A DNA stretch of 64,000 nt, taken from Podarcis erhardii (Eukaryota). Below are positions 9,001 through 12,000 of this stretch, one piece after another. Position numbers: made by a program. Position 1 is the first letter of the stretch, and each line of letters starts with the position of its first letter. The DNA is taken from NCBI GenBank assembly GCA_964252035.1, contig OZ176201.1. One strand, given 5' to 3'.

Positions 9001-12000
9001 TTTTGCCACCGGGGGCAAAGTCCCCCATGAGCCGTCGGGTCAGCCCTTCCCCGCCACCCGTTTTGACCTTTTAACTGTATGGTTGCAGCTACGGAAACAG
9101 CCGGGTCACCAGGTGGACCCTTGGGGTTGAGGGCCACCGAATGGATGGTAAGGAACCACGGGGTCCTGGGTGGGTGAACGGACTGCTGTCTGCTTTCTCC
9201 CTCGCTCCCTGTGTTTATTAGACAGCTGCTTCTTTCAAGGAATGTATGGTGAGAAAAGGGCTCTAAAGACAAAGACACACATGGATCTATCTGTGACGCT
9301 GAATGTGGCACAGTAAATTTTTGAGCAGATGGGTTTGTACTCACATGCAGCCCCTACAACAAATCAGCTCTGACTGTCATAGACATATGTAGAAACTATT
9401 TAAATGGTTAGCCTTGGGGGAGTTATTCCTGATGAATTATGTTTCTACTAACTCCAGAATTTATCCCCTTTTATTTCCAGTTAAAGAACCTTGAGCGTTG
9501 AACAAAAGATGCTCAGAGCTGCTGTTTTCTCTCTAAGGGTACCATTTTTGCTTTATGAATTTGCAGCACGTCGTAGTTTGAGCTGAGCTTTCTTGCTGCT
9601 ATTACCATCCTAATTGCTGTTTTAAATGCTTATATGAAGGAAGAATCTGCCAGTTTATTCTAAGTAGTAGATTCAAAGCCTCAAAAATCAAAGGTGTTGG
9701 CATCATAAAGAGTAAGGAGGGTCAATTAGGAGAAATCTAAGGATCAACATGCTCAAGAATGTCTCCTTGCTGACAAGCCATCTAAAGCACATTCTGATAA
9801 CTTTCACCCAGTCCATTGGGCATGATTGTATTTAAATAAAATGTCTAGCCCTCAAGGTTGTGATGAAGTATCAGAAATAGCTGTTTAGATTCTGCTAAAC
9901 ACTAAGGATATGGATGAGTCTTCTGCTGTCATGAAGCAGATTTTCTTGTTTCCTGGAATTCTAACATTTTATCAGTATTCCAAACTCATGGGAATGGCAA
10001 GGGTGAAGAAGGCTCATCATTTGTGGGGTAGGAGGAAAAGGTTAAACTTCCCTCTATATTTTTTTTTAACTGACTGGCTTCCTAATGGTGCATTTAAGTG
10101 TTACATCTAATTTGGCTTTCAGTGACAAATGGCAGGTGAAAACATTTTCCCCTGGAAACCTATGCCTGCTCACTTTGACCACTGGTCTTCTCTAGAGGCC
10201 TTTCTTTCTCCCCCTATTAATATCTGTTGTTACACCTTCTGACCTGGTCACTACAGTCTCAGTTATAGGGTGAGGGGCAGCCTATTGGTGAATAAACTGC
10301 ACCATGCTTTTTCTCAGAAACACTGTCCTGTCACTTATTAGGACCATGTTCACAGATGTCATGGCTGAGCCGAGATGTCATGAGACTTCCTGTTTCAGCC
10401 CCCAATAAAAAATCATTGTGATGTAGTGTTACTGTATTGAACTTTGACTGGGCAGATCCTGGGTTCTAATCCCCACTCAGCTATGAAACCCACTGGGTGC
10501 CCTTGGATCAGTGACTCTTGGCCTAATCTGCTCACAACTTATGTTAGTATAATTGGAGGAAGGGGGATAATAGAATTGTGTATGGTGCCCTGAGCTCCTT
10601 GGAAGAAGAGCGAGATATAAATGTAATAAGAAATAAAAAAATAAATATTTCACATCCTCAAGAGTATCACAACCAAAATGAAATTTGCATAAATATGTCC
10701 CATGGTTGATTCCAATTGCAGGCATTGGTTTACTAGTCATAGGATATTTCTTAGAAGGGTTGAGGGGGTGAGGTTATAGAACCAGATTACCTGTACTTGG
10801 CCTAGAAATTAAGGCCACATGCACACCATACATCCCAACACATATTTAAAGCGCATGACTTTCCCGAAAGAATCATGGGAACTCTGTTTCTCCCCCCCCC
10901 CCAGTACCTTCAACTACATATTCCAGGATTCCTTGGAGGAAGTTATGTGCTTTAACTGTGTGTTGGTTGTTCTTCAAGGGTATGGCATGGATCTGCCCTA
11001 AATCTGCTAGTCTGTATCCCATCCTTTTGCTGACTTGTTTTCTATACTAGAGAGATTACAATGGTGTCTGTTCCTGTATAGCCACTGAAAAAGACAGGAG
11101 AATGCAAGGCAGTGTATTGATAATATCTGGCTGGCCTGTTCTTGCCTATGGCCAAGGCTCTTAGGATGTTTAAGATCCCTCTGAGATAACATACAAGTTA
11201 CGCACCAAAGCCAACACTTGCCCCTCAAGAGACTTGTTAGCCAAATGATGATGCTTTTTCGTTGTTGTTTTGGAAACCTTGTGAGGAGGGAGGCCCCTTG
11301 TGTTGGAGAATATATTGGTTTCCGTCTCCAGTTGCTAGCAGTGCAGGAGCGAGATTAAATTCTAATTTCATATCTAAATTAATGCTGAAAAGACCCAGAG
11401 TGATAAAGTGGTGAAACAAAACCAGTAAAACATTAAATGAGGAACATTGAGGTGGCAATGTTCAGATGCACCAGATCAGTACAAATAAGAATCCCACGCA
11501 GACTGCTTCCCAACAGTCCTGCAAAAAGATGTTTTCCTTGCATTTCTAAAATGTAACCGTGAAAATCATTGCCACACTTCTTCTGGGAACTCATTCCAAA
11601 CCTGCTGGAAAGGTCCTACCCCTTCCAATTGAAGTTTAACTTCTGGAAGATGGGGATTTTTATCTGGGCCCAACCAGAAGTTCCTAATGGGAGGCTAGTG
11701 TATGTGTGTCAGGAACACAGGAAGCTACCTTCCATCAAAGCAGACAATTGGTCAATCTAATTTAGGGATGGAGTCCCTCTGGCCCTCTAGATGTTGGACT
11801 CCATCTTCCATCAGTCCCAGCTGGCATGACCAATGACCAGGGATGATGAGAGTTGTAGCCCATCAACATGGATGGCCACAGGTTCCCATCTCTAGTCTAT
11901 ACTGACTGGGAGCACCTTTCCAGGATTTCAGACAGGTCTTTCTCAACCTACTTGGAGATACTAGAGATTGAGCCTGGAGCCTTCTGCATGTAAAGCAGGG

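What the first reader, a model, noticed from the sequence alone, without database searches (positions are those of the whole stretch)
9079..9153. Candidate short non-myristoylated PKA Calpha isoform (MDVKEFL...) with an overlapping uORF
Seen: ATG GAT G|GTAAGG in a CpG-enriched patch splices in frame to exon 2, giving 338 aa. An out-of-frame ATG at 9079 opens 23 codons that would stop exactly on the first codon (TGA) of exon 2. Established: mammalian sperm Calpha2 uses an intron-1 exon ending ...Asp-Val, short N-terminal variants are reported in other vertebrates, Gly2 myristoylation and Ser10 phosphorylation need exon 1, and Met-Asp is a NatB substrate. Inference: this is the squamate short isoform, possibly testis- or brain-restricted and translationally damped by the uORF.
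Basis: partly seen in the sequence, partly recalled or inferred. Interest (0 to 1): 0.65.

Follow-up and report, generated by a model that had tools for sequence, protein, structure and literature searches.

The report
Short alternative first exon of lizard PKA
This is most likely the tiny alternative first coding exon (Met-Asp) of a lizard protein kinase A catalytic alpha gene, giving a short non-myristoylated form of a kind already described in vertebrates, so it is real but ordinary.

Summary
ATG GAT G|GTAAGG lies at 9141-9153. It joins in frame to exon 2 at 23178 and gives 338 codons over ten AG/GT-bounded exons. An out-of-frame ATG at 9079 opens 23 codons and meets TGA at the start of exon 2.

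Sequence alone does not lift this above chance. Four other ATG-plus-donor candidates upstream of exon 2 tie or beat it.

Outside evidence does. A public Podarcis muralis record (A0A670K8E7) starts MDVKEFLAKAKEEFLKKWENPLQ, exactly the proposed N-terminus. A leatherback turtle RefSeq isoform (XP_043362751.1) also starts MDVKEFL. Each has a sister model starting MGNAATAKKGG.

Soberg et al. [quoted passage not shown] They found no testis restriction outside mammals.

So the short isoform is supported and already known as a kind. "The squamate isoform" is too broad, because snake and gecko models carry other short N-termini.

The uORF depends on an unknown transcription start. Its "exact" stop follows from exon 2 starting TGA. 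Tissue restriction is untested. The window's exons were never joined for a search.

The parts
9141..9147 (+). Coding end of the alternative 5' exon (exon 1-S type): ATG GAT G. It encodes Met-Asp plus the first base of the split Val codon.
   Evidence: The N-terminus MDV matches public records P0006 and P0028. It is the only ATGGAYGGT in the window.
9148..9153 (+). Splice donor GTAAGG (phase 1). Exon 9 of the same gene uses the same hexamer.
9079..9147 (+). Putative overlapping upstream ORF, 23 codons, in a different frame from the main ATG. Its stop TGA is supplied by 23178-23180 after splicing. It is present in the RNA only if the exon begins upstream of 9079.
   Evidence: Start context is AACTGTATGG. 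An acceptor-like site at 9083-9088 could exclude it.
9027..9074 (+). Second possible upstream ORF: 15 codons plus TAA, in the frame of the main ATG and closed before it. It matters only if transcription starts further upstream.
8850..9200 (.). Patch locally enriched in GC and CpG (GC about 0.6, CpG o/e 0.53-0.56). It is a possible alternative promoter region but not a CpG island.
   Evidence: No repeat copy elsewhere in the window. No Pfam match for the long ORFs across it.
23178..23239 (+). PRKACA exon 2: (V)KEFLAKAKEEFLKKWENPLQ.
25108..25236 (+). PRKACA exon 3 (glycine-rich loop, GTGSFG).
25335..25433 (+). PRKACA exon 4.
27525..27607 (+). PRKACA exon 5.
28914..29040 (+). PRKACA exon 6 (catalytic loop, YRDLKPEN).
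29568..29663 (+). PRKACA exon 7 (DFG, activation segment).
29810..29932 (+). PRKACA exon 8.
32848..33012 (+). PRKACA exon 9.
35112..35237 (+). PRKACA exon 10 coding part with stop (...KEFAEF*).

Best explanation
The window carries the PKA catalytic subunit alpha gene (PRKACA) of a lacertid-like lizard, with exons 2-10 on the + strand. The stretch 9141-9147 is the coding end of a genuine alternative 5' exon of the published 'exon 1-S' type. It lies 14 kb upstream of exon 2. The canonical exon 1-1 and the long exon 1-L are both absent from the window, so they should lie upstream of it.

Transcripts that start at or run through this exon splice 9147 to 23178. They are translated from ATG 9141 into a 338-aa CalphaShort kinase, M-D-V-KEFL. 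This form has the complete catalytic core. It lacks the 14 residues of Calpha1 that carry Gly1 myristoylation, Asn2 deamidation and Ser10 phosphorylation.

By inference the myristate pocket is left empty, as proposed for mammalian Calpha2 and CalphaShort. The Met-Asp end would be kept and N-acetylated (NatB rule, established knowledge). By analogy with Calpha2, catalysis and binding of R subunits and PKI should not change. What should differ is localisation or partner choice.

If the 5' leader starts upstream of 9079, an overlapping 23-codon uORF would divert some scanning ribosomes and lower output. Its start context is comparable to the main ATG's (no purine at -3, G at +4). That last step is inference only.
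For: Shown:
- Exons 2-10 are found with AG/GT borders, and the total with the 7-nt exon is 338 codons.
- Pkinase or Pkinase_C pieces match in 7 of the 9 exons scanned one by one; exons 2 and 4 gave no match.
- The best named relatives of exon 3 are lizard 'catalytic subunit alpha' records, 98-100% identical.
- SAMD1 lies downstream on the same strand.
- P0006 (Podarcis muralis A0A670K8E7) starts MDVKEFLAKAKEEFLKKWENPLQ. Its cluster mate P0123 (A0A670KE21) starts MGNAATAKKGGEIESVKEFL and is otherwise the same.
- P0028 (Dermochelys XP_043362751.1, isoform X2) starts MDVKEFL. Its mate P0144 (XP_038235074.1, X1) starts MGNAATAKKGGELESV.
- These pairs come from records of two different sources and two reptile orders. 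Both show the same 13-residue swap.
- The window has exactly one ATGGAYGGT, on the right strand, upstream of exon 2, with a strong donor.
- The window is not the P. muralis reference. It has I for V in exon 5, and the intron-9 read-through tail of P0006 is only 67% identical, with gaps and stops. So the motif is shared by two lizard genomes.

Literature:
- Exon 1-S lies between 1-L and exon 2, has at most eight codons and is phase 1. [quoted passage not shown]
- Calpha2 is kinetically like Calpha1 (PMC3163529, passages).
Against: - No transcript, junction read or cap site for this species could be examined, because no vertebrate genome or RNA collection is on hand.
- The two public records are automatic gene models. 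The calls do not say what evidence they rest on. That they are RNA-based is my inference from their retained-intron tails.
- From sequence alone, 4 other candidates tie or beat this one.
- Only 2 of 240 stored proteins start MDVKEF.
- The 11 squamate records listed include only one MDV start.
- Snake and gecko models show different short N-termini, so the exon is not general to squamates.
- The start context is only intermediate (C at -3, G at +4).
- The sequences in Fig 2C of PMC5526564, and its supplements, could not be seen. I therefore cannot say whether MD is the published reptile sequence.
Confidence: 0.75

Rival explanations
1. Chance ATG next to a chance donor. The site is not used, and the public MDV models are annotation artefacts: a pipeline supplied a minimal start exon to complete an N-terminally open model.
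For: 436 phase-compatible ATG..GT candidates lie upstream of exon 2, and 5 reach this donor score. ATGGAYGGT is expected 0.79 times in the window. Both public records are truncated or read through introns, so they are imperfect models. The patch is not a CpG island.
Against: Records from two different sources, in a lizard and a turtle, both carry MDV, each paired with a canonical MGNAATAKKGG model. Short 5' exons of this kind were found in reptile transcriptomes (PMC5526564, section 8). None of the four rival candidates matches any stored N-terminus: 0 of 149 stored proteins.
Confidence: 0.13
2. The exon is real but is mainly an internal cassette (9089-9147, 59 nt) spliced in from an upstream exon. 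After exon 1-1 it would shift the frame onto the TGA at the start of exon 2, acting as a poison exon. After a non-coding first exon, ATG 9141 would be used and ATG 9079 would be intronic, so there would be no uORF.
For: An acceptor-like TTGCAG|C ends at 9088, with a TTAAC branch-like motif upstream and pyrimidine fraction 0.63. Further acceptor-like sites give exon starts at 8967 (TTCCAG|G) and 8688. One base carried from exon 1-1 plus 59 nt makes 60 nt, which ends flush and so meets TGA (arithmetic).
Against: The real acceptors of this gene have pyrimidine fractions of 0.74-0.89. Mammalian exon 1-2 and the published 1-S exons are described as alternative 5' exons (PMC5526564, sections 3 and 8). 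There are no transcript data either way.
Confidence: 0.07
3. A different site in intron 1 is the real short first exon of this species. Candidates are 7047 (CAG|GTAAGT, 34-codon ORF) and 16017 (CAG|GTGAGC, MIQKHCRMA).
For: Both have better donor scores than 9148.
Against: No stored protein carries either N-terminus: 0 of 149 stored proteins. The 34-codon ORF exceeds the eight-codon limit of exon 1-S, and the paper found no medium-length 5' exons (PMC5526564, section 9). The candidates at 12073 and 12096 lie in an interspersed repeat with a second copy at 28734-28833.
Confidence: 0.05

Closest known systems
CalphaShort, the product of PRKACA exon 1-S (Soberg, Moen, Skalhegg, Laerdahl 2017, PLoS One, PMC5526564)
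   Same: A very short alternative 5' coding exon (at most eight codons) upstream of exon 2. It has a phase-1 junction with a split codon, no myristoylation site and no residues to fill the hydrophobic pocket. It was reported in reptile transcriptomes.
   Different: The published reptile sequences (Fig 2C) could not be seen, so identity with MD is unconfirmed. At three codons this exon is at the short end of the class.
Podarcis muralis A0A670K8E7 (P0006) and Dermochelys coriacea XP_043362751.1 (P0028)
   Same: The same N-terminus, MDVKEFL. P0006 is 100% identical to the window over exons 2 and 3.
   Different: Both are automatic, incomplete models. P0006 reads through intron 9 and P0028 reads through intron 4. 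P0006 differs from the window in exon 5 (V for I) and in intron 9, so it comes from another genome.
Mammalian sperm-specific Calpha2 (PRKACA exon 1-2; structure 4AE9, cited in PMC6143667)
   Same: An alternative 5' exon inside intron 1 replaces the myristoylated N-terminus with a few residues, and the catalytic core is unchanged. An Asp precedes the split Val in this lizard exon, in the human form as I recall it, and in one unnamed stored record (P0154, MASNPNDV).
   Different: Calpha2 has eight codons and is exclusive to testis. Testis specificity was not found for exon 1-S outside mammals, and orthology could not be settled (PMC5526564, section 8). The one opossum record seen, a truncated 302-aa model, starts MGLSV.
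Short N-terminal variants of PRKACB (Cbeta3/Cbeta4 type)
   Same: Several short alternative 5' exons lie between the long exon and exon 2, and the products are not myristoylated (PMC5526564, sections 3 and 9).
   Different: It is a different paralogue. The window's exons and neighbour are of the alpha type. The mammalian Cbeta records seen start MSARKSSEASACSSSEVSV.

Membership tests
PKA catalytic subunit alpha (PRKACA) | Conserved exons 2-10 encoding the AGC kinase core and C-tail | tested here: met
   Nine exons with AG/GT borders. Pkinase or Pkinase_C matches in 7 of the 9 exons scanned one by one; exons 2 and 4 gave none. 92-100% identity to the lizard records P0006 and P0010 per exon.
PKA catalytic subunit alpha (PRKACA) | Alpha rather than beta paralogue | tested here: met
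   The best named hits for exon 3 are 'catalytic subunit alpha' of Podarcis, Anolis and Pogona, at 98-100%. SAMD1 lies downstream on the same strand. That SAMD1 neighbours PRKACA in other vertebrates is recalled, not tested.
CalphaShort / exon 1-S | 5' exon no longer than eight codons, counting the start and the split codon | tested here: met
   Three codons: ATG, GAT and G|TG. Definition from PMC5526564, section 8.
CalphaShort / exon 1-S | Phase-1 junction to exon 2 with a split codon | tested here: met
   G at 9147 plus TG at 23178-23179 gives Val. Phase from the PMC5526564 Fig 2 legend.
CalphaShort / exon 1-S | Lies between exon 1-1 or 1-L and exon 2 | tested here: inconclusive
   Neither exon 1-1 nor exon 1-L (no + strand hit upstream of exon 2 beyond chance) is in the 23 kb before exon 2. 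The order is consistent but not seen.
CalphaShort / exon 1-S | No myristoylation site and no pocket-filling residues | tested here: met
   The N-terminus is Met-Asp-Val, with no Gly at position 2. Criterion from PMC5526564, section 13.
CalphaShort / exon 1-S | Junction present in transcripts | not testable with these tools
   No vertebrate RNA or genome collection is available. The only indirect support is the public models P0006 and P0028.
Mammalian Calpha2 (exon 1-2) | Orthology shown by alignable flanking sequence | not testable with these tools
   No mammalian or other vertebrate genomic DNA is on hand. The authors of PMC5526564 could not settle it either (section 8).
Mammalian Calpha2 (exon 1-2) | Testis or sperm-exclusive expression | not testable with these tools
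   No expression data. The literature says it was not found in non-mammals (PMC5526564, section 8).
Regulatory overlapping uORF | The upstream ATG lies inside the transcribed leader | not testable with these tools
   The transcription start is unknown. An acceptor-like site ending at 9088 could exclude ATG 9079.
Regulatory overlapping uORF | Conservation of the uORF, or ribosome occupancy | not testable with these tools
   No orthologous DNA or ribosome profiling. The peptide has no Pfam match. Of the papers holding both PRKACA and uORF, 8 of 11 were listed and none has either term in its title or abstract; only the listing was seen.

The most novel reading that the evidence does not exclude
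The Met-Asp|Val exon is one ancient sauropsid exon shared by lizards and turtles. It may be the orthologue of mammalian exon 1-2, which in eutherians also ends Asp|Val. That would make the short non-myristoylated Calpha older than the amniote split. The conserved Asp could serve as an N-cap for the A-helix, and the leader could carry a conserved overlapping uORF as a translational brake. This would answer the orthology question that Soberg et al. 2017 left open.
Probability: 0.15. Interest if true: 0.45.

Novelty: already known. Interest (0 to 1): 0.2.

Why it matters
PKA Calpha is a model kinase, and its N-terminus controls myristoylation, localisation and partner binding. A short form in a lizard adds one more instance of the CalphaShort class published in 2017. 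It is already present in public protein records of a sister species, so it changes little.

Two small points may have value. First, the same Met-Asp start appears in a lizard model and a turtle model, which makes the open orthology question for exon 1-S testable by aligning the flanks. Second, the leader may hold an overlapping uORF, which has not been discussed for this isoform in the papers I could search.

Tried and rejected
- **Canonical exon 1-1:** the patterns ATGGGNAAYGCNGC and ATGGGNAAY gave 0 matches. It is not in the window.
- **Long exon 1-L:** tblastn with the N-termini of three CalphaL-type records (Anolis P0010, Alligator P0136, Lepidochelys P0070) gave no convincing hit. The best E-values were 0.027-0.45, and all of the best hits lay on the wrong strand.
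- **Snake, gecko, turtle and opossum short N-termini:** eight peptides were slid over the three + frames of 1..23177. The only full match was the 4-residue MGLS at 16604, with no donor after it. The rest reached at most 4 of 5 to 8 of 28.
- **Exon 2 as a search query:** I used exon 3 instead.
- **N-terminal fragments under 217 aa:** searching with residues 1-40 of the public record P0006 gave 14 hits and no lacertid fragment. The same search at 217-692 aa listed 120 of 130 hits. No listed record other than the query P0006 itself starts MDV.
- **Two unnamed snake-like records (P0007, P0009):** these turned out to be genomic read-ins and said nothing about 5' exons.
- **Literature:** 'MDVKEFL' occurs in 0 papers. 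PRKACA with uORF gave 11 papers, 8 listed, none on this topic judging by title or abstract; I saw the listing only.
- **A hidden gene or repeat under the patch:** the long ORFs 8714-9127 (+) and 8931-9353 (-) have no Pfam match. There is no second copy of 8400-9500 in the window.
- **ESM Atlas look-up of the 957-aa ORF:** not available.
- **Joined model:** the window's exons were not joined into a spliced model for any search.
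Full report
**What is in the window**

The + strand carries exons 2-10 of a PKA catalytic subunit gene. Kinase motifs (GTGSFG, RDLKPEN, DFGFA, GTPEY, FDDY and the ...KEFAEF stop) sit in separate open stretches between 23.2 and 35.2 kb. I fixed the exon borders from tblastn with two public lizard proteins and from the splice signals. All acceptors are AG and all donors are GT.

Scanned one by one, 7 of the 9 exons hit Pfam Pkinase or Pkinase_C; exons 2 and 4 gave no match. 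Exon 3 alone, searched against the protein collection, finds lizard 'cAMP-dependent protein kinase catalytic subunit alpha' records at 98-100% identity. Podarcis muralis is at 100% (1168 hits among 1172 candidates, 120 listed). A SAMD1 gene (Pfam SAMD1_WH and SAMD1_SHD) follows on the same strand, inside the window's only true CpG island. So the gene is PRKACA of a lizard close to Podarcis. I take none of this for human sequence.

**Checking the observation**

- ATG GAT G|GTAAGG is at 9141-9153.
- Exon 2 begins TG AAG GAG at 23178, so the junction gives Met-Asp-Val-Lys-Glu-Phe-Leu.
- The ATG at 9079 opens 23 codons that end flush with 9147. TGA then follows from exon 2.
- That 'exact' stop is not a coincidence to be explained. 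Exon 2 starts TGA, so every frame that ends flush with any upstream exon stops there.
- A second upstream ATG at 9027 opens 15 codons, closed at 9072-9074.
- The 'CpG-enriched patch' is a local rise: GC 0.60 and CpG o/e 0.53-0.56, against a window median of 0.18. It falls short of an island. The island at 43.5-45.5 kb has o/e 0.65-1.08.

**Is it more than chance?**

On the sequence alone, no. Upstream of exon 2, 436 GT sites have an in-frame ATG in the required phase. Five of them, counting this one, reach its donor score. For this I used an approximate donor matrix recalled from memory.

| Donor GT at | Donor | Note |
|---|---|---|
| 7047 | CAG\|GTAAGT | 34-codon ORF |
| 16017 | CAG\|GTGAGC | MIQKHCRMA |
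| 12096 | GAG\|GTGAGC | in a repeat |
| 12073 | ATG\|GTAAGG | in a repeat |

The last two lie in an interspersed repeat with a second copy at 28734-28833. ATGGAYGGT is expected 0.79 times in the window and occurs once. The start context is intermediate, with C at -3 and G at +4.

**Outside evidence**

Among the 120 listed hits, 11 are named squamate records. One of them, Podarcis muralis A0A670K8E7 (P0006, 395 aa), begins MDVKEFLAKAKEEFLKKWENPLQNTSS. That is letter for letter the proposed N-terminus followed by the window's exons 2 and 3. Its only cluster mate, A0A670KE21 (P0123, 408 aa), is the same protein with MGNAATAKKGGEIESV in place of MDV. Both read through intron 9. I take that as a sign of transcript-built models, but this is inference, since the calls do not give their evidence.

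P0006 is not from this window's genome. Exon 5 has V where the window has I. The translated intron-9 tail is only 67% identical, with gaps and stops. So the ATGGATG|GT motif is shared by two related lizard genomes.

Two further searches used residues 1-40 of the public record P0006. These searches brought up Dermochelys coriacea XP_043362751.1 (isoform X2, P0028), which also begins MDVKEFL. Its mate X1 (XP_038235074.1, P0144) begins MGNAATAKKGGELESV. In all, 2 of 240 stored proteins start MDVKEF.

Other squamate models carry different short ends:

| Source | N-terminus up to the split codon |
|---|---|
| Notechis isoform X4 | MPTRPVSEV |
| Notechis isoform X5 | MCAFVQGV |
| Notechis isoform X7 | M |
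| Gekko | MEWIFLRDV |
| Sphaerodactylus | MTVFLV |

None of them has a counterpart upstream of exon 2 here.

**Literature**

Soberg et al. 2017 (PMC5526564; I read the outline and sections 5, 7, 8, 9, 13 and 16; figures and supplements were not visible) searched vertebrate transcriptomes for 5' exons of PRKACA. Their main points:

- They describe exon 1-1, a long exon 1-L (absent in mammals and birds) and short exons 1-S of at most eight codons.
- The order is always 1-1, 1-L, 1-S, exon 2, with a phase-1 split codon.
[quoted passage not shown] - Orthology with mammalian exon 1-2 could not be settled.
- The defining trait they propose is the lack of anything to fill the myristate pocket.

The 2018 review (PMC6143667, passages only) repeats this and cites the Calpha2 structure 4AE9. 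Vetter et al. 2011 (PMC3163529, passages only) report that Calpha2 matches Calpha1 in activity, holoenzyme formation and inhibition.

The window fits this picture. Exon 1-1 and exon 1-L are both absent from the 23 kb before exon 2, so they should lie further upstream. The Met-Asp exon then sits in the 1-S position.

**How it most likely works**

Shown: the gene, the exon arithmetic, the donor, and the match to two public N-termini.

Inferred:
- An alternative start of transcription, or an upstream non-coding exon, feeds this exon.
- Translation starts at 9141. The next in-frame Met lies inside the glycine-rich loop region of exon 3, so no other start on this RNA would give a working kinase.
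- The product lacks Gly1 myristoylation, Asn2 deamidation and Ser10 phosphorylation.
- The Met-Asp end is kept and acetylated (NatB rule, established knowledge).
- The empty pocket may take other partners, as proposed for CalphaShort.
- Asp just before the A-helix could act as a helix N-cap. This is my speculation.

The uORF would lower output only if the leader includes 9079. An acceptor-like TTGCAG|C ending at 9088 shows that this cannot be assumed.

**Rivals**

- A chance site with two artefactual models: 0.13.
- A 59-nt cassette or poison exon, or a second exon behind a non-coding first exon: 0.07.
- A different first exon elsewhere in intron 1: 0.05.

**Verdict**

The short isoform is supported, and it is already known both as a kind and as a database record in a sister species. 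The claims about squamate generality, tissue restriction and uORF control are not supported by anything I could test.

Still unchecked:
- Transcripts and cap sites.
- Fig 2C and the supplements of the 2017 paper.
- The joined spliced model.

Noticed in passing
window 43759-45117 (+), inside the CpG island 43501-45500: A large open exon matches Pfam SAMD1_WH (E 2.3e-27) and SAMD1_SHD (E 7.6e-18). It is a SAMD1 orthologue directly downstream of PRKACA on the same strand, in the only true CpG island of the window (GC 0.57-0.80, CpG o/e 0.65-1.08).
   Followed up: partly
window 60865-63735 (-): A 957-residue open frame rich in Ser, Pro and Glu, with a near-repeat (QDVTVSSSPTETHPAVL twice). It has no Pfam match. 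It could be a large disordered coding exon of a neighbouring gene.
   Followed up: partly
window 11991-12092 (+) and 28734-28833 (-): An interspersed repeat with 71% identity between the two copies. It carries two strong-looking ATG-plus-donor combinations (12063-12073 and 12083-12096) that mimic short first exons. This is a trap for reading first exons by eye.
   Followed up: partly
window 33013-33285 (+), intron 9: The public Podarcis muralis models P0006 and P0123 read through the exon 9 donor into this intron. In the window the same frame is broken by stops. So those public records have an artefactual or retained-intron C-terminus, and the true end is exon 10 (...KEFAEF).
   Followed up: yes
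window 23141-23177 (+), just before exon 2: The polypyrimidine tract before exon 2 is open in frame and starts with an ATG (MLFLCLCLLTV-KEFL). An Anolis UniRef record (G1KM04, P0008) begins with the equivalent read-in (MLFLCLCFLAV). This is another annotation artefact that can pass for a short N-terminus.
   Followed up: partly
public records P0145-P0148 (Notechis scutatus), not in the window: One snake locus is modelled with a CalphaL form, a Calpha1 form and three different short N-termini. Laticauda shares the MPTRP..SEV type. So short first exons of PRKACA differ between squamate lineages.
   Followed up: partly
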